NCBI GenBank assembly: GCA_947085465.1
Contig: CAMTWQ010000025.1
Location: 7,691 to 71,690, forward strand
Direction of reading: 5' to 3'
Length of the DNA stretch: 64,000 nt
Source: an uncultured Alphaproteobacteria bacterium
GTDB taxonomy: Bacteria > Pseudomonadota > Alphaproteobacteria > UBA11222
This document shows positions 6,006 through 54,127 of this stretch, piece by piece. The notes beneath the pieces were generated by a model, which saw only the letters and a program-made list of their open reading frames with translations, did no database searches and was not told where the DNA came from. The translations under genes were made by a program, and so were the position numbers. Numbering within the stretch: the first letter of the stretch is position 1; each line of letters starts with the position of its first letter.

Positions 6006-7460
6006 TTAGCGTTTGAAGCCGGGAAAGCCAGGCGGCAGCGGCGGCATGCCGGCATTCGGCCCGCCAAGGCCCGGCAATGCGCCAGGTTTGAAACCCGGCG
6101 GCAATGCGGGCATTCCACCGCCGCCCATTCCGGTTAACCCGCCCAGCATGCTTTTCATGCCTTGCTTGCCGACCTTCTTCATCATATCGGCCATTTGCCG
6201 GTGCATTTTCAGCAGCCGGTTCACGTCCTGCACGCTGGTTCCGGAACCAGCGGCAATGCGTTTTTTTCGCGAGCCGCCAAGGATCTTTGGTTTGCGCCGT
6301 TCTAGTTGGGTCATGGAATGCACGATGGCCTCCTGACGCTTGAGCATTTTGTCATCCAAGCCTGCTGCGGACAATTGACTTTTCACCTTGCCGACCCCCG
6401 GCAACATGCCAAGCACCCCCTGCATCCCACCCATTCTACGCATTTGCGCCAATTGCTCCGCCAGGTCGTCGAGATCAAACTCGCCCTTTTGCATTTTTTT
6501 GGCGAGTTTTTCGGCCTTTTCGGCCTCGAAGCTCTCAGCGGCGCGCTCGACGAGGCCAACCACATCGCCCATGCCAAGAATCCGCCCAGCGATCCGCTCT
6601 GGATGAAAATCCTCCAGTTCTTCAAGCTTTTCGCCAACGCCAATGGCCTTGATCGGGCAACCGGTGATAGCGCGCATGGAAAGCGCCGCGCCGCCGCGCC
6701 CATCGCCATCCACGCGGGTCAGAATAATGCCGGTAAGCGGCGTGCGCGCATGAAAGCTTTGCGCCACATTCACAGCGTCCTGGCCGGTCAAGCTGTCGGC
6801 GACCAGCAAGCATTCATGGGGGTTGACGGCGGCGCGCACCGCCGCCACCTCGGCCATCAGCGCTTCGTCTATATGGGTGCGCCCGGCGGTATCGAGCATC
6901 ACCACGTCAAAGCCGCCCAGCCTGCCAGCCTCCATGGCGCGCTTGGCGATATCCACCGGCATTTGCCCAGCGACGATGGGCAGGGTGGCGACACCCGCCT
7001 GCACGCCCAGCACCTTCAATTGTTCCTGGGCGGCAGGCCGCTGCACATCCAGCGACGCCATCAGCACTTTTTTGCGGTCGCGCTTTTGCAGCCGCATAGC
7101 GAGTTTTGCGGTGGTTGTGGTTTTACCCGAACCTTGCAGGCCAACTATCAGCACCGGCACCGGCGCGGGCGCGTTAAGATCAATGCCCTGGGCCGTATCG
7201 CCCAGCATCGCCACAAGACTGTCGTGCACAATCTTGATCACCATCTGGCCCGGCGTGACCGATTTGACGACTTCGGCCCCAATGGCGCGCTCACGCACCC
7301 TGGCGATGAAATCGCGCGCCACCGGCAGCGCCACGTCGGCTTCCAGCAGCGCGCGGCGCACTTCGCGCATGGCGGCGTCCACATCCGCCTCACTCAGCGA
7401 CGCCTGTTTGCGCAGCGCATCGAAAATGCCGGATAGGCGCTCGGAAAGACTTTCAAACAT
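6006..7460 (-). CDS. ffh: Signal recognition particle protein Ffh
   Basis: 484 aa. GLQGSGKTTT P-loop, DTAGR, Met-rich M domain and Gly/Pro-rich tail. Confidence 0.95.
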   Translation of the reverse strand: MFESLSERLSGIFDALRKQASLSEADVDAAMREVRRALLEADVALPVARDFIARVRERAIGAEVVKSVTPGQMVIKIVHDSLVAMLGDTAQGIDLNAPAPVPVLIVGLQGSGKTTTTAKLAMRLQKRDRKKVLMASLDVQRPAAQEQLKVLGVQAGVATLPIVAGQMPVDIAKRAMEAGRLGGFDVVMLDTAGRTHIDEALMAEVAAVRAAVNPHECLLVADSLTGQDAVNVAQSFHARTPLTGIILTRVDGDGRGGAALSMRAITGCPIKAIGVGEKLEELEDFHPERIAGRILGMGDVVGLVERAAESFEAEKAEKLAKKMQKGEFDLDDLAEQLAQMRRMGGMQGVLGMLPGVGKVKSQLSAAGLDDKMLKRQEAIVHSMTQLERRKPKILGGSRKKRIAAGSGTSVQDVNRLLKMHRQMADMMKKVGKQGMKSMLGGLTGMGGGGMPALPPGFKPGALPGLGGPNAGMPPLPPGFPGFKR

Positions 7461-7620
7461 CGCGTGTTAGCCTGTAATACAATACAAAATGCGCCAGTGG
7501 GCGAAACCTCGCTGACTGGCGGGACGTGTTTTCCGATCATCGCTATGATGGATCGGAGCGGAAGTTAGGCTCGCGCCAGGCTAGAGTCAAGTTTTAGCGG
7601 CTAAATTAGAAGGAAACACC

Positions 7621-49323: not shown

Positions 49324-49593
49324 ATGACACTCCGCACCAATATTGTACTGGCCGCAACGGCGTTGGCTCTGTCTCTGTCAAGCGCAGCCTTCGCGCAATT
49401 CAATGAAGACCTAGGCAAGCGCGTCATGGAGAAATGCTCCATGATGATGAAGGGCGACATGCCGAAAATGGACGATATGATGAAAAAATGCGACATGATG
49501 ATGAAAGGCGAAAAGATGGATGACGCCGGCATGATGAAGATGGATGAGATGATGAAGACAGACGGCATGATGAAAGACGATATGAAGAAGTAA
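49324..49593 (+). CDS. Secreted Met/Lys/Asp-rich small protein (MXKDX pentapeptide-repeat-like)
   Basis: Signal peptide MTLRTNIVLAATALALSLSSAAFA. The 65-aa mature part contains 20 Met by hand count, in MMMKGD / MMKK / MMKTD units, plus 2 Cys. Confidence 0.7.
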   Translation: MTLRTNIVLAATALALSLSSAAFAQFNEDLGKRVMEKCSMMMKGDMPKMDDMMKKCDMMMKGEKMDDAGMMKMDEMMKTDGMMKDDMKK

Positions 49594-49663: not shown

Positions 49664-50074
49664 TTATGGGCTGGCTGGTGTTCCGCCCGCTCTGGCGCGA
49701 TAGGACGCCGCCGCATCAGCCAGTTTGGAAAAATTATCCCGGATATGCGCATAAATTTGATGGGCTAATGCGGCGTTATATGTGTGCGAGGTGTTATTGC
49801 GGTCACTCAGCATTTGCAGCCATGCCGCCTCATCATCTATCCACTGCGCTTTGAACGCCTCGCGGATAACAGCGCGCGGGGTGGCGGCGGCAATGCCTTC
49901 CGCTTCCAGCATGTGCATGAGTGTTTTCCAGTTCAGTTCGAAGGCGAACTCGAAGCGCTGAATCGTGCCATCCACGGCCAGCGGATTGGTTTGCGGTTCT
50001 TCCAGCGCTTCCTTTAGCCGCAGCACCGCCTGCTCCAGATTACTCAGCGATTGTTCAATTTTATCCGCGCTCAT
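49664..50074 (-). CDS. HEPN-domain toxin, HI0074/HepT family (nucleotidyltransferase substrate-binding subunit)
   Basis: The Rx4HxY motif is present (RNNTSHTY). 136 aa from MSADKIEQ. The 5' end overlaps the upstream MNT gene by 14 nt. Confidence 0.75.
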   Translation of the reverse strand: MSADKIEQSLSNLEQAVLRLKEALEEPQTNPLAVDGTIQRFEFAFELNWKTLMHMLEAEGIAAATPRAVIREAFKAQWIDDEAAWLQMLSDRNNTSHTYNAALAHQIYAHIRDNFSKLADAAASYRARAGGTPASP

Positions 50075-50363
50075 ACAGCAAGCGTCCTTCCGCCATGATC
50101 CGTTGCGCGAATTCGGGCGCCGCCTCCTCAAGGCGGATGGCGTCGATCTTCAACAAAGTATCCGCCACGTCAATGGCCTCACATATGTCGGCCCAAACCC
50201 GCGCATCCGCCAGCGGGCAGGCAATCGCCAGATCGATGTCCGAGCGCGGGCCAGCATCGCCGCGCGCCCGCGAGCCAAACAGATAGACCCGTTCCACCTG
50301 CGCAAAGCGCTGTAATTGACGCACGACAATCTGCGCCGGGGCAATCTGGTCCGCTAATTCCAT
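50061..50363 (-). CDS. Minimal nucleotidyltransferase (MNT/MntA-type antitoxin)
   Basis: The GSRARGDAGPRSDIDL motif fits GSxxxGxxxxxSDxD. 100 aa from MELADQ. Confidence 0.75.
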   Translation of the reverse strand: MELADQIAPAQIVVRQLQRFAQVERVYLFGSRARGDAGPRSDIDLAIACPLADARVWADICEAIDVADTLLKIDAIRLEEAAPEFAQRIMAEGRLLYERG

Positions 50364-52537: not shown

Positions 52538-52888
52538 ATGGTGGGTGAGTGGCTTTTGCTGTTGTCGGCGCGCGCCGTCGATTCGCCGGAAAGCCGGGCG
52601 GCTTTGTTTAACGAAATCAACTCCACTGCATTCGATTTGATGGAAAATGGCGGCGTATTTGGATATCCGCTGGTCTCAACCTTCGCCGGACAGCTTTATA
52701 AACTCACCGGCAAGGACAGCGGCATGGATGATCCCCATGTGGAGATCATCAGGGCGCATATTGACGCCCTTCGCGCCGTCATCAAGGGGCGCGTAAAAGG
52801 CGTCAGCGGCGATGTTGCCGGAAAATTGATAGCCGATCTTGAAAGCGCTGTAAAAAAGCACGCGCCAGCCATTCAGCTTGCCTCCTAA
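52538..52888 (+). CDS. HPt-like protein with the phospho-accepting His replaced by Phe (shorter paralog of 53588-54127)
   Basis: It aligns by eye over about 100 aa with the C-terminal half of the downstream HPt protein. TAFDLMENGGVFGY aligns with IAHDMKGQGGTFGY. Codon F32 lies at 52631-52633. Confidence 0.55.
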   Translation: MVGEWLLLLSARAVDSPESRAALFNEINSTAFDLMENGGVFGYPLVSTFAGQLYKLTGKDSGMDDPHVEIIRAHIDALRAVIKGRVKGVSGDVAGKLIADLESAVKKHAPAIQLAS

Positions 52889-53016
52889 TCTGTTTTTTGC
52901 TTTCGTGAGGCGCGGATAGTTTTTATCTGAAACCAATGTATTAGATACTATTCCGCAGGTGAGCATACAGAAAGCGTTAAGGATTTTTCCTTAATATTTA
53001 ATACTATTTCTTAGGC

Positions 53017-53595
53017 ATGAGTGCGCCAGAGGCGGCAAAAATGGCTGATTACAATTTTGAACGCCTCAACGTACTTCTGGTCGAGGACAGCCCGTTCCTG
53101 ACATCCTTGATGATGACCTGCCTGCGAGAACTCGGCGTAGTAAATATCAAAACCGCAACACACGGCGGTGACGCTATTGATCTCATAAAACTGATGACTG
53201 TGGATCCGAGCCGCGCCGGGATCATGAGTGTGGATGTGATTATTTCTAATTGGCAGATGTCGCCGGTGGATGGGACGATTTTGCTGCGCTGGGTCCGGCG
53301 GCATAAGGAAAGCCCCAACCGGTTCATGCCATTCATCATGATTTCAGGACATTCCGAAACCCACCTTGTCAATCAAGTTCGCGATTTAGGCGTAACGGAA
53401 TTTCTGGCCAAACCGTTCTCTGTCTTATCGTTTGCCCAGCGCATAGTGCAGGTCGTTGAAAGACCACGCCAGTTTATTCAGTCAGAACAATATTTCGGCC
53501 CGGACCGGAGGCGCAAACCCATCCCGCTTGATAACAGGCCCGACCGCCGCTCGCTTACAGACAGCAGCCCTGAAGTCGAGGTGATTCATGCCTAA
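53017..53595 (+). CDS. CheY-like receiver-domain protein with Asn at the phospho-acceptor position and an Arg-rich C-terminal tail
   Basis: VLLVEDSP..., IISNWQMSPVDG aligns without gaps to CheY VISDWNMPNMDG (D57 equivalent is N78, codon 53248-53250). MISGHS and LAKPF are conserved. The tail is YFGPDRRRKPIPLDNRPDRR. Confidence 0.8.
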   Translation: MSAPEAAKMADYNFERLNVLLVEDSPFLTSLMMTCLRELGVVNIKTATHGGDAIDLIKLMTVDPSRAGIMSVDVIISNWQMSPVDGTILLRWVRRHKESPNRFMPFIMISGHSETHLVNQVRDLGVTEFLAKPFSVLSFAQRIVQVVERPRQFIQSEQYFGPDRRRKPIPLDNRPDRRSLTDSSPEVEVIHA

Positions 53596-54127
53596 CGTGG
53601 ATACAAAACCTAAACCCAATATCAAGGTGCGCATTTTCCGGCTGGAAAACCGCTTGCGGGATAAGGTGGGCGGGCTTGGCGTCGGGCGTGAGAAATTGAG
53701 TATTTCAATTGTGGCTTTGGAAAAGGCTCAGGCGGCGCTTGAGACGCTCTCGGAAGATTATCCTGACTGGGTTTCCAAGCATATCGATCAATTAACGGCA
53801 TTAGTTGTAAACGCTGCGGAGAAGCCTGAAAATCGAAGTGATATTTTCGCCGAAATCAATCACATTGCCCACGATATGAAGGGGCAGGGCGGCACGTTCG
53901 GCTATGTTCTGGTGACCATCTTTGCTGACTCCCTGCACAAGTTCACCACCAAGACCGCAGGCCGCACGGATCAGCACCTTGAAATCGTTAAGGCCCATAT
54001 TGACGTGATGCGCGCGGTGATAAAGGGGCGCGTTCAGGGCAAGGGGGGCGAAACCGGCAAGCAATTGATCGACTCATTGCAAATGGCCATTAAAAAATAT
54101 TCGCCTAAGAATCAGCTAATACATTAG
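53588..54127 (+). CDS. HPt (histidine phosphotransfer) domain protein
   Basis: HDMKGQGGTFG fits the HxxKGxxxxxG HPt signature (H95, codon 53870-53872). Its ATG overlaps the receiver gene by 8 nt. Confidence 0.7.
   Translation: MPNVDTKPKPNIKVRIFRLENRLRDKVGGLGVGREKLSISIVALEKAQAALETLSEDYPDWVSKHIDQLTALVVNAAEKPENRSDIFAEINHIAHDMKGQGGTFGYVLVTIFADSLHKFTTKTAGRTDQHLEIVKAHIDVMRAVIKGRVQGKGGETGKQLIDSLQMAIKKYSPKNQLIH

What the first reader, a model, noticed from the sequence alone, without database searches (positions are those of the whole stretch)
52538..54127. Kinase-less HPt(His->Phe) - receiver(Asp->Asn) - HPt(His) cassette
Three small co-directional genes sit in a visibly AT-richer patch. (i) A 116-aa protein aligns along its length with the HPt half of gene iii but reads TAFDLMENGG where gene iii has the HPt signature IAHDMKGQGG. 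It has lost both the His and the Lys. (ii) A CheY-like receiver has a core, IISNWQMSPVDG, that aligns without gaps to CheY VISDWNMPNMDG. This puts Asn at the Asp57 position while the ED pair, Ser/Thr and Lys-Pro are retained. (iii) A 179-aa HPt protein with an intact His overlaps gene ii by 8 nt. A receiver that cannot accept phosphate on Asp, flanked by one competent and one dead HPt and with no histidine kinase in the window, does not fit a standard phosphorelay. It may be a phosphorylation-independent or decoy module.
Basis: partly seen in the sequence, partly recalled or inferred. Interest (0 to 1): 0.6.

Follow-up and report, generated by a model that had tools for sequence, protein, structure and literature searches.

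The report
Asn-receiver c-di-GMP sensor with HPt partner
Two of the three genes are one widespread but unstudied alphaproteobacterial signalling unit, a CheY-like protein with a c-di-GMP-binding tail and no phosphorylatable aspartate, joined to a histidine-phosphotransfer protein; the third gene, the "dead" HPt, is a one-off truncated copy found only in this genome.

Summary
Gene ii (53017/53041-53595) is a receiver domain with Asn78 at the CheY Asp57 position, and its other active-site residues are kept. Gene iii (53588-54127) is a CheA-P1-like HPt with His95. Gene i (52538-52888) is a 5'-truncated paralog of gene iii with His->Phe and Lys->Met.

The Asn is not strain decay. It is present in about 90% of orthologs across several alphaproteobacterial orders, and the tree shows about 7 N<->D switches.

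This tail aligns without gaps to the Arg-rich c-di-GMP-binding peptide of the Caulobacter Cle proteins, which act without phosphorylation.

Genes ii and iii overlap by 8 nt. They are collinear with an abundant family of single-chain REC-ARR-HPt proteins of about 354 aa. In that fused family Asp is always kept, but about a quarter have Leu in place of the His. The two phospho-sites are therefore lost separately in different lineages, while the neighbouring GQGGTFGYPL motif stays invariant.

Gene i is absent from relatives whose receiver is 85% and 96% identical. It has no relative above 45% identity among 1.84 billion cluster representatives (each standing for a 50%-identity cluster).

Kinases, GGDEF proteins and FliM exist elsewhere in the genome.

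Verdict: this is a new variant of the Cle-type c-di-GMP effector coupled to an HPt. The mechanism is inferred, not shown.

The parts
52538..52888 (+). Gene i: a 116-aa, 5'-truncated, His-less paralog of the P1-like HPt (Phe32 at the His position, Met35 at the Lys position). It is a singleton and is probably a remnant or, at best, a decoy.
   Evidence: It is 48% identical to gene iii residues 67-177 and 56-58% identical to the HPt of two same-family genomes. It lacks the N-terminal ~66 residues that carry family-invariant motifs. There is no homology upstream of the ATG and no good Shine-Dalgarno site. It is absent from relatives. The next best hit among 1.84e9 representatives is 45% identical. 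Its branch is long, 0.86 against 0.09 for gene iii. Omega is 0.23-0.29.
52902..52926 (+). Terminator-like hairpin plus T-run after gene i. This is weak evidence.
   Evidence: Consensus scan. The number of such sites in the region equals the shuffled expectation, so this is only suggestive that gene i is a separate unit.
52939..53015 (+). AT-rich leader of gene ii carrying a 21-nt imperfect direct repeat (TATTAGATACTATTCCGCAGG / TATTTAATACTATTTCTTAGG). It may be a regulatory site.
   Evidence: The repeat was found. The proximal ~70 nt are conserved in the relative whose receiver is 96% identical, L025.
53041..53460 (+). Gene ii receiver (REC) domain. It is CheY-like and Asp-less, with Asn78 (53248-53250) at the acceptor. 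Glu23/Asp24, Ser110, Lys132 and the alpha4 residue Arg122 are kept.
   Evidence: PF00072 E 3.3e-16. Alignment to CheY. Family conservation. The Met9 start follows from the orthologs.
53461..53562 (+). Gene ii Arg-rich region (ARR), RPRQFIQSEQYFGPDRRRKPIPLDNRPDRRSLTD. It is a Cle-type putative c-di-GMP-binding peptide.
   Evidence: It matches [YF]xGP[DE][RK]R (PMC5677366). It aligns gaplessly to the CleD peptide SKPREWVEAVAYVGPDRRRFNSADYKGPRKRKADAS (PMC7382256). Equivalents of Y150, D154, R155, R156 and R169 are kept at the same spacing. Y163 is replaced by D, G165 by R, and D172 is shifted by one residue. The motif is conserved in the family.
53563..53595 (+). Gene ii C-terminal strand (SSPEVEVIHA). 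It corresponds to a beta-strand in the fused homologs.
   Evidence: It is collinear with residues 176-185 of the fused protein P0257. That segment is strand E179-184 with pLDDT of about 93 in the AF2 model.
53588..54127 (+). Gene iii: a 179-aa CheA-P1-like HPt with His95 (53870-53872) in AHDMKGQGGTFGY. Its N-terminal VRIFRLENRLRDKVGG segment is a strand/linker in the fused homologs. The start overlaps the end of gene ii by 8 nt.
   Evidence: PF01627 19.6 bits, below the cut-off. His is present in 119 of 120 homologs. Profile hits to CheA P1 and YPD1. AF2 core pLDDT 80-92 and top Foldseek hits to CheA P1. The receiver-HPt adjacency is conserved in 80 named loci.

Best explanation
Genes ii and iii form one signalling unit, a split version of a REC-ARR-HPt protein that is widespread in Alphaproteobacteria.

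Gene ii is a Cle-type CheY-like protein. Its input is most likely c-di-GMP bound by the C-terminal Arg-rich peptide, not phosphorylation, because the acceptor Asp is Asn in most orthologs.

Gene iii is a CheA-P1-like HPt that keeps its His. It is made in fixed proportion to gene ii through an 8-nt overlap, and it probably stays bound to gene ii through a small beta-sheet that is shared across the point where the gene is split.

The inferred mechanism is as follows. c-di-GMP binds exactly at the REC/HPt junction and changes how the non-phosphorylatable receiver sits on the HPt. This would gate either (a) the access of His95 to outside partners, namely the receiver domains of hybrid kinases such as the CheA-REC or HK-REC-HPt proteins encoded elsewhere and a downstream regulator, or (b) the receiver's alpha4-beta5-alpha5 face towards the flagellar switch protein FliM. 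Either route would link c-di-GMP level to a phosphorelay and to motility.

Gene i is not part of this conserved unit. It is a singleton, 5'-truncated, His-less copy of an HPt gene from the same bacterial family. It is most likely a remnant of a lost second cassette, and at best a decoy.

What is shown here: the residues, the conservation, the synteny, the fusions and the predicted folds. What is inferred: c-di-GMP binding, complex formation and the gating.
For: - Asn at the acceptor, with DD, T and K kept.
- N in 110 of 121 homologs and in 41 of the 51 fully scored named receiver-HPt pairs.
- The receiver tree needs 7 N<->D changes. D lineages nest within N clades, and the fused outgroup is all D.
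- The ARR tail matches the Cle motif and the CleD c-di-GMP contact residues (PMC5677366, PMC7382256).
- Cle proteins act without phosphorylation, and CleD naturally has Glu at the acceptor.
- The alpha4 Arg is conserved.
- The receiver-HPt adjacency, with overlap, is conserved in relatives and in 80 named loci from Kordiimonas, Emcibacter, Sneathiella, Iodidimonas, Rhodothalassium, Micropepsaceae and others. These loci often lie next to flagellin, flaG, flaF and flbT genes.
- All 120 best matches to the fused query are single-chain REC-ARR-HPt proteins of about 354 aa. They are collinear with gene ii plus gene iii.
- The AF2 model of a fused member has pLDDT 86.5 and pTM 0.76, with confident strands on both sides of the split point.
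- The gene iii fold is closest to CheA P1.
- The genome has 6 GGDEF proteins, a FliM with an LNQDEIDSLL CheY-docking motif, a CheA-REC hybrid and a hybrid HK-REC-HPt.
- Gene i is absent from relatives and is a singleton.
Against: - No binding, phosphotransfer or expression data exist.
- The second half of gene ii's ARR is degenerate: the aromatic residue and the Gly are lost, and the final Asp is shifted by one. Affinity for c-di-GMP may therefore be low.
- The strict retention of DD, T and K around the Asn, and of the His in N-type pairs, suggests the active site still does some chemistry or recognition that this model does not explain.
- About 26% of the fused proteins lack the His, so phosphotransfer may not be the core function of the HPt-like domain at all.
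- Gene i keeps an open frame, a coding-like GC pattern and omega of about 0.25, so it may not be dead.
Confidence: 0.55

Rival explanations
1. Gene ii is a pure Cle-type motor brake. It works like CleA or CleD: c-di-GMP binds the tail and the receiver docks on the FliM N-terminal peptide to alter flagellar rotation. The HPt-like partner would be a structural or localisation subunit whose His is incidental, and no phosphorelay would be involved.
For: Cle precedent (PMC5677366). FliM with the CheY-binding motif is present. Orthologous cassettes frequently lie beside flagellin, flaG and flaF/flbT genes. About 26% of the fused homologs have Leu instead of His while ELRGQGGTFGYPL stays invariant. 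Other members carry H->M, H->N or H->F.
Against: In N-type pairs the His is essentially invariant: 119 of 120 homologs and 41 of 41 scored pairs. No pair lacking both sites was seen. This argues that one phospho-site is still needed. Many N-type operons also carry a second, canonical Hpt gene upstream (PF01627 E 1.2e-9), which points to phosphorelay traffic.
Confidence: 0.22
2. The Asn receiver is still phosphorylated, on the neighbouring Ser77 (position D-1), by HPt~P. This was shown for the laboratory mutant CheY D57N, which is phosphorylated on Ser56. On this reading the pair is a slow, long-lived phosphorelay step.
For: Ser or Thr at D-1 is invariant (117 S, 4 T). DD, T and K are all retained. 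The precedent is Appleby & Bourret 1999, Mol Microbiol 34:915; the citation was verified and its content is taken from my own knowledge.
Against: Ser at D-1 is equally invariant in the D-type members, so it is not an adaptation to Asn. Ser phosphorylation of D57N was slow and is a laboratory artefact with no known natural counterpart. The repeated N<->D switching fits near-equivalence of the two residues better than a changed chemistry.
Confidence: 0.06
3. The whole three-gene patch is decaying: it is a degenerate, horizontally acquired, AT-rich relic with no current function.
For: GC is lower than in the surroundings. Gene i is truncated and unique.
Against: Genes ii and iii are intact. They are syntenic with close relatives, with the same flanking fdxR and chorismate mutase-hisC-tyrC genes. 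They are highly conserved at 50-65% identity across orders, with long invariant motifs. They keep the conserved 8-nt overlap. Omega for gene iii is 0.13-0.15.
Confidence: 0.03

Closest known systems
[quoted passage not shown] 2017, PMC5677366; Hee et al. 2020, PMC7382256)
   Same: Both are a single CheY-like receiver followed by an Arg-rich peptide with the motif [YF]xGP[DE][RK]R, a conserved upstream P-R-x-[WF] and a conserved Arg in alpha4. Both are alphaproteobacterial. Cle proteins are activated without phosphorylation, and CleD also lacks the Asp (it has Glu70).
   Different: Here the acceptor is Asn and this is conserved across orders. The second ARR repeat is degenerate in this genome. 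The protein is translationally coupled, and in other lineages fused, to a P1-like HPt domain. Neither Cle paper read here mentions such a partner; a term search of the 2017 paper found no 'Hpt'.
CheA P1 domain and stand-alone P1-like HPt proteins such as HmrX (CC_1220) of Caulobacter (PMC11481889)
   Same: Gene iii has an HxxKG..GTFG signature and a helical-bundle core. Its best fold matches are PDB 8C5V, 1I5N and 2LD6, the same three entries reported for HmrX. HmrX affects the motile-sessile switch and c-di-GMP-linked phenotypes.
   Different: Homology to HmrX could not be tested because its sequence was not obtainable here. Gene iii has an extra conserved N-terminal segment (VRFYRFxNRLKEK). 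It is bound genetically to an Asp-less receiver, not to a kinase.
REC-HPt relay segments of phosphorelays (ArcB/BarA-type unorthodox kinases; Sln1 receiver with Ypd1)
   Same: The domain order is receiver then HPt. The fused relatives keep both Asp and His, as a D1-H2 relay would. The REC of the fused model matches the Sln1 and CheY receivers.
   Different: There is no kinase core. An ARR c-di-GMP peptide is inserted between REC and HPt. The Asp (this clade) or the His (about a quarter of the listed fused proteins) is dispensable.
Pseudo-HPt proteins of plants (AHP6 / PHP; e.g. PMC11497342)
   Same: Gene i has an HPt fold with the phospho-His replaced, which could in principle compete for partners.
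   Different: AHP6 is conserved and functional. Gene i is truncated, has no ortholog and has no expression evidence.
Bacterial pseudo-receivers / aspartate-less receivers (review PMC12632262)
   Same: Gene ii meets the definition: it is a PF00072 domain lacking the D site. About 2% of receivers lack it, and about 0.9% of Hpt domains lack the His.
   Different: The review reports that Glu commonly replaces the D site, whereas here it is Asn with every other catalytic residue retained. Unlike nearly all characterised atypical regulators, it is not an orphan but is paired with an HPt.

Membership tests
Response regulator receiver domain (PF00072) | Profile match above the curated cut-off and a (beta-alpha)5 fold | tested here: met
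   59.9 bits against a cut-off of 30.2. CheY structures match at E 3e-9. The REC of a fused homolog superposes on CheY and Sln1 REC at TMt 0.85-0.87.
Response regulator receiver domain (PF00072) | Phospho-acceptor Asp at the end of beta3 | tested here: not met
   Asn78 aligns with CheY Asp57. N is present in 110 of 121 homologs. The domain is therefore a pseudo-receiver (ALR) as defined in PMC12632262.
Response regulator receiver domain (PF00072) | The other four catalytic residues (DD, T, K) | tested here: met
   Glu23-Asp24, Ser110 and Lys132. ED and K are at least 90% conserved; the Thr/Ser position is only 60-90% conserved.
[quoted passage not shown] | Single CheY-like REC with a C-terminal Arg-rich region carrying tandem [YF]xGP[DE][RK]R | tested here: inconclusive
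   The first repeat, YFGPDRR, is exact. The second, DNRPDRR, keeps only P-D-R-R in this genome, but it is canonical (for example FDGPDRR) in many orthologs. Alignment to the CleD peptide is gapless.
[quoted passage not shown] | c-di-GMP contact residues DRR ... [R/K]RxxD (CleD D154, R155, R156, R169, D172) | tested here: inconclusive
   D163, R164, R165 and R178 lie at the same 15-residue spacing as D154 to R169. The final Asp is displaced by one residue (RRSLTD). The Y163 equivalent is Asp.
[quoted passage not shown] | Conserved Arg in helix alpha4 required for function (CleA R111, CleD R113) | tested here: met
   Arg122 lies in 'VRDLG' at acceptor+44, compared with +43 in CleD. The family consensus is ARD.G, at least 90% conserved and invariant in the fused family. 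The positional equivalence is inferred from spacing, not from a structure.
[quoted passage not shown] | Binds c-di-GMP and then FliM | not testable with these tools
   Only the prerequisites were checked: 6 GGDEF genes and a FliM with LNQDEIDSLL are present in the genome.
HPt domain (PF01627), CheA-P1 type: gene iii | Profile match above the curated cut-off | tested here: not met
   19.6 bits against a cut-off of 24.6, E 1.1e-3. Some family members do carry a precomputed PF01627 hit.
HPt domain (PF01627), CheA-P1 type: gene iii | Solvent-exposed His in an HxxKG motif on a helix of a four-helix bundle | tested here: met
   AH95DMKG lies in predicted helix 80-104 with pLDDT of about 90. His is present in 119 of 120 homologs. 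Top Foldseek hits are CheA P1 domains, prob 0.95-0.99, although the E-values are not significant. The profile hits CheA P1 and YPD1 at E 0.02-0.2.
HPt domain (PF01627), CheA-P1 type: gene i | Phospho-accepting His | tested here: not met
   Phe32 aligns with His95, and Met35 with Lys98. There is no Pfam or NCBIfam hit.
Functional pseudo-HPt (AHP6-like decoy): gene i | The His-less form is conserved in orthologs, which would show selection for the decoy | tested here: not met
   No ortholog was found. The gene is absent from relatives whose receiver is 85% and 96% identical. The best non-self hit in 1.84e9 representatives is 45% identical and is an ordinary His-bearing HPt.

The most novel reading that the evidence does not exclude
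The REC-ARR-HPt unit may be an undescribed junction between c-di-GMP signalling and His-Asp phosphorelays. On this reading the Asp-less receiver keeps a complete Mg2+/phosphate pocket (DD, T, K) because it acts as a non-consuming reader or clamp of the phospho-His of its HPt partner, and c-di-GMP bound at the REC/HPt hinge sets whether the His is exposed to outside kinases and regulators. The repeated, separate losses of Asp (this clade) or His (about a quarter of the listed fused proteins), never both in one unit among those examined, would then reflect lineages that keep only the input side or only the output side of the relay.
Probability: 0.25. Interest if true: 0.8.

Novelty: new variant of a known kind. 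Interest (0 to 1): 0.58.

Why it matters
Cle proteins showed that a CheY-like fold can be driven by c-di-GMP instead of phosphorylation. Here the same kind of receiver is welded, genetically or physically, to a histidine-phosphotransfer domain.

The HPt family occurs in about a third of sampled alphaproteobacterial genomes (54 of 151). Strict motif scans found 160 genomic stretches encoding a relative in the species-representative genome collection. Pfam does not see the HPt part, so databases list these proteins simply as 'response regulator'.

If the unit couples c-di-GMP to a phosphorelay, it would be a direct meeting point of the two main bacterial signalling currencies, and it sits near flagellar genes. 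The natural D/N and H/L/F/M/N variants amount to a ready-made mutational series. They could be used to test what pseudo-receivers and pseudo-HPts do, which a 2025 review (PMC12632262) calls an open question.

Tried and rejected
- Gene i as the counterpart of the small canonical Hpt gene that sits upstream of the receiver in Kordiimonas-type operons. Rejected: there is no sequence similarity (best E above 1). Gene i belongs to the P1-like family.
- Gene i as a recent tandem duplicate of gene iii. Rejected: nucleotide identity is about 56%. Gene i is closer to the HPt of other genera of the family (56-58% against 48%). It branches near the base of the family clade on a long branch.
- Asn78 as a sequencing or assembly error. 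Rejected: N is shared by relatives at 96%, 85%, 70% identity and beyond.
- A kinase hidden in the window. None was found by tblastn.
- A covariation test between the receiver D/N state and changes in the HPt 'HDMK' motif. Only 3 independent contrasts were available; all or most went the same way, but p = 0.25-0.5. This is suggestive only.
- Whole-chain fold search of the fused model. Only the REC domain found matches (TMq 0.32), and no solved structure has this architecture.
- Expression evidence from public runs.
- Direct test of homology to Caulobacter HmrX.
- The sigma-70 promoter scan found nothing in the region. This is uninformative for an alphaproteobacterium.
Full report
**Observation.** The three co-directional ORFs are present as described.

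Gene ii matches the receiver profile PF00072 well above its cut-off (59.9 bits against 30.2). HMMER alignments to CheY crystal structures run without gaps through the active-site strand. They put Asn78 on Asp57, Glu23-Asp24 on the acidic pair, Ser110 on Thr87 and Lys132 on Lys109.

Gene i aligns over 111 residues with the C-terminal two-thirds of gene iii at 48% identity (E 1e-36). It reads AFDLMENGG where gene iii has AHDMKGQGG.

Genes ii and iii overlap by 8 nt. The lower GC is real but modest. It comes mainly from spacers of 38-39% GC, while the three genes have a normal coding GC1/2/3 pattern.

Two refinements apply. Gene ii most likely starts at Met9 (53041), as in all orthologs and behind a GAGG site. 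Gene iii is below the Pfam Hpt cut-off (19.6 bits against 24.6), so its HPt identity had to be established by other means.

**Is the Asn conserved?** Yes. The collection of about 5.8 billion non-redundant proteins holds 595 proteins matching gene ii at E <= 0.001, and the best 120 are about 183 aa long. In the alignment, the acceptor column is N in 110, D in 10 and A in 1. The surrounding S-N-W-x-M-S-P-V-D-G, the ED pair and K-P-F are conserved at 90% or more.

In 80 loci from named genomes, the fully scored receiver-HPt pairs are N/H in 41, D/H in 9 and D/F in 1. These genomes include Kordiimonas, Emcibacter, Sneathiella, Iodidimonas, Rhodothalassium, Eilatimonas, Pedomonas, Micropepsaceae and Sphingomonadales MAGs.

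A maximum-likelihood tree of 146 receivers needs 7 N<->D changes. The D lineages are nested inside N clades, and the outgroup (the fused relatives, see below) is uniformly D. N and D differ by one transition (AAY/GAY). So the Asn is an old, widely kept state that has been reversed several times, while the rest of the pocket stays intact.

**The receiver tail.** After alpha5, gene ii continues with RPRQFIQSEQYFGPDRRRKPIPLDNRPDRRSLTD.

Nesper et al. (PMC5677366) defined the Cle family of Caulobacter as CheY-like proteins with a C-terminal Arg-rich region. That region carries tandem [Y/F]xGP[D/E][R/K]R and binds a c-di-GMP dimer. [quoted passage not shown] Hee et al. (PMC7382256) solved the structure of the peptide-ligand complex. 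[quoted passage not shown]

The gene ii tail aligns to the CleD peptide SKPREWVEAVAYVGPDRRRFNSADYKGPRKRKADAS without a gap. The equivalents of P-R-x-W/F, Y150, D154, R155, R156 and R169 are present at identical spacing. In this genome the Y163 and G165 equivalents are lost and the last Asp is shifted by one residue. Many orthologs have a canonical second repeat, for example FDGPDRR. Arg122 in alpha4 ('ARD.G') is conserved at 90% or more.

The genome also holds a D-type Cle-like paralog with a textbook tandem ARR (YFGPCRR...YHGPERR) on contig C14. Gene ii is therefore a Cle-type protein by sequence. Ligand binding itself is untested.

**The HPt partner.** Gene iii belongs to a family of about 168-aa proteins with an invariant AHDMKGQGGTFGYPL. 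His is present in 119 of 120 homologs.

A profile of 25 members hits CheA P1 domains and YPD1 weakly in the PDB. An AlphaFold2 model has a confident five-helix core (residues 60-170, pLDDT 80-92) with His95 on the second core helix. Its best Foldseek matches are CheA P1 domains (8C5V, 1I5N, 1TQG, and 3KYJ, which is CheA3-P1 with CheY6). Probabilities are 0.95-0.99 but the E-values are not significant, which I would expect for small helical bundles.

The same three PDB entries (8C5V, 2LD6, 1I5N) were reported as the nearest structures to HmrX. HmrX is a stand-alone P1-like HPT of Caulobacter that affects motility, holdfast and c-di-GMP-linked phenotypes (PMC11481889). I could not obtain the HmrX sequence, so this remains a lead only.

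With a profile search, the family is found in 54 of 151 evenly sampled alphaproteobacterial genomes, often in several copies.

**Genes ii and iii are one unit.** The receiver-HPt adjacency, usually with the same short overlap, holds in close relatives and in more distant paralogous pairs with a normal Asp. It also holds in most of the 80 named loci; in the rest, my crude ORF caller missed one of the two genes in high-GC genomes.

In three genomes of the class the two are one open reading frame. A search with such a fusion listed 120 single-chain proteins of about 354 aa as its best matches. They come from Rhodospirillales, Magnetospirillum, Roseospirillum and relatives, and Pfam annotates all of them as PF00072 only.

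These proteins are collinear with gene ii plus gene iii. The fused sequence '...GDDHITQVYSADNVKRPRNPSDVWVFRLPNTLKEKLGG...' corresponds to the end of gene ii ('...TDSSPEVEVIHA') followed by the start of gene iii ('MPNVDTKPKPNIKVRIFRLENRLRDKVGG...').

AlphaFold2 on a fused member, with the 120-sequence paired alignment, gives pLDDT 86.5 and pTM 0.76. It predicts a CheY-like REC, a beta-hairpin at the start of the ARR (as in the CleD peptide), and then confident strands at 179-184, 187-189 and 197-200 (pLDDT of about 93) before the helical bundle.

The gene split in our organism falls between the first and the later strands. This suggests that the two polypeptides are held together by strand complementation. 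Consistent with this, the N-terminal 59 residues of gene iii modelled alone are of low confidence.

**Mosaic loss of the phospho-sites.** In the fused family the acceptor is D in 120 of 120. The His column, however, is H in 89 and L in 31, while the flanking ELRGQGGTFGYPL remains invariant. Other members have H->M, H->N or H->F with a D receiver (L067).

The units examined are therefore D/H, D/non-H or N/H. None lacks both sites, but the number of independent events is too small for a statistical claim. A contrast test between the D/N state and changes in the HPt 'HDMK' motif had only three independent pairs.

Two inferences follow. Asp-to-His transfer inside the unit cannot be its universally conserved function. 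Yet each unit seems to keep one site for dealing with outside partners.

**Context.** In Kordiimonas-type genomes the operon is: a small 95-aa protein, then a canonical 123-aa Hpt (PF01627 E 1.2e-9), then the receiver(N), then the P1-like HPt. A large coiled-coil membrane protein is encoded divergently upstream. VWA, MoxR, flaG and flagellin genes, or flaF/flbT and flagellin genes, lie downstream.

An earlier agent of this scan described the same four-gene operon in another genome (note e1-2168937). That is agreement, not independent evidence.

In our MAG (69% complete) the pair sits between a ferredoxin reductase gene and chorismate mutase-hisC-tyrC, exactly as in a relative whose receiver is 85% identical. 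The VWA-MoxR-flagellin block lies on another contig, next to a hybrid HK-REC-HPt kinase.

The genome also has a CheA-REC hybrid, at least 8 further HisKA kinases, an orphan P1-like HPt paralog, 6 GGDEF proteins and a FliM with the CheY-docking motif LNQDEIDSLL. 'Kinase-less' therefore describes the locus, not the cell.

**Gene i.**
- It lacks the first ~66 residues of the family, including the invariant R15, N21, L23, K26, G29 and EDYPDW.
- Nothing upstream resembles them in any frame.
- There is no convincing ribosome-binding site.
- It is followed by a weak terminator-like hairpin.
- It is missing from the relative whose receiver is 85% identical, where only 160 nt separate the upstream gene from the receiver. 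It is also missing from the relative at 96%, whose similarity to the window begins only about 70 nt upstream of the receiver.
- It is not a recent copy of gene iii. Nucleotide identity is about 56%. It is closer to the HPt of other genera of the same family. It sits on a branch nine times longer than that of gene iii, inside the well-supported family clade.
- Pairwise omega is 0.23-0.29, against 0.13-0.20 for the intact genes. dS is saturated. The frame was therefore constrained for most of its history.
- An exhaustive HMMER search of 1.84 billion cluster representatives returns only itself above 45% identity. The short hits below that are ordinary His-bearing fragments.
- Its substitutions cluster at the phospho-site, where 6 of 10 residues in AHDMKGQGGT are changed, while the core residues persist.

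My reading is that gene i is the 3' remnant of a second, diverged or imported cassette. The odds are about 60:40 in favour of a non-functional remnant over a His-less decoy. The 'dead HPt' is not a conserved feature of the system.

**Mechanism.** The best-supported reading treats genes ii and iii as a split REC-ARR-HPt unit. In this unit the receiver is a c-di-GMP-controlled, non-phosphorylatable regulatory subunit of the HPt, or it is a Cle-like motor ligand with an HPt-like partner, or both.

I favour gating of the HPt for four reasons. The ARR lies exactly at the REC/HPt junction. The His is essentially invariant wherever the Asp is lost. Many N-type operons add a second Hpt. The intact DD/T/K pocket around the Asn looks like a site that still recognises something, plausibly the phospho-His.

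The pure Cle-type motor-brake model is the main rival. It is favoured by the His-less fused clade and by the flagellar neighbourhoods. Phosphorylation on Ser77, by analogy with CheY D57N (Appleby & Bourret 1999), is possible but unlikely, because that Ser is equally conserved in the D-type members. Decay is excluded for genes ii and iii.

**Verdict.** The item is a new variant of a known kind: a Cle-type c-di-GMP effector that is Asp-less by Asn and paired or fused with a P1-like HPt that domain databases do not detect. No experiment bears on it yet. The decisive tests are c-di-GMP binding, complex formation, phosphotransfer assays with N78D, S77A and H95A, and genetics in a cultivable Kordiimonas or Iodidimonas.

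Noticed in passing
proteins P0270-P0357 (fused REC-ARR-HPt family; alignment A2): 31 of the 120 fused REC-ARR-HPt proteins have Leu at the phospho-His position (LALELRGQGGTFGYPL), while the flanking motif is invariant and the receiver Asp is always kept. This His-less HPt-like group seems to be under strong constraint.
   Followed up: partly
L067 (MAG, Sphingomonadales; receiver and HPt near 6400-7513): This pair has the reciprocal state to the window: the receiver has reverted to Asp, and its full-length HPt partner has Phe at the His position (AFDMKGQG).
   Followed up: no
own genome contig C14:69675-70190 (-): A second Cle-like receiver (171 aa) has a normal Asp acceptor (MVILDWEMPGIDG) and a textbook tandem ARR (YFGPCRRR...YHGPERR). 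No adjacent HPt gene is present.
   Followed up: partly
own genome contig C35:199-705 (-): An orphan P1-like HPt paralog (168 aa, AAHDLKGLGATYGFPV) has no receiver upstream. It lies 200 nt from a contig end.
   Followed up: no
own genome contig C123:21967-28706: A membrane hybrid kinase (HisKA-HATPase-REC-HPt, 736-codon frame) lies directly beside VWA(CoxE-like)-MoxR and two flagellin genes. This is the same block that flanks the receiver-HPt operon in Kordiimonas, so this kinase is a candidate phosphodonor for gene iii.
   Followed up: partly
L030, L032, L034-L036 and about 25 other loci, about 650-1000 nt upstream of the P1-like HPt: Many N-type operons carry an extra canonical Hpt gene (about 123 aa, HKLKGA, PF01627 E 1e-9) and a conserved 95-aa protein of unknown function just upstream of the receiver. 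Neither has a detectable homolog in this 69%-complete MAG.
   Followed up: partly
window 52939-52959 and 52995-53015: A 21-nt imperfect direct repeat (TATTAGATACTATTCCGCAGG / TATTTAATACTATTTCTTAGG) lies in the AT-rich leader of gene ii. The proximal copy is conserved in the relative whose receiver is 96% identical. It may be an operator.
   Followed up: no
window 49324-49593 (+): An 89-aa ORF with a signal-peptide-like start and an extremely Met-rich mature part (MMMKGD/MMKxD repeats) could be a periplasmic Cu(I)-binding mini-protein.
   Followed up: no
window 49664-50363 (-): A HEPN (RNNTSHTY) and minimal nucleotidyltransferase pair looks like a type VII toxin-antitoxin module. It lies just upstream of the ferredoxin/ferredoxin-reductase pair.
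   Followed up: no
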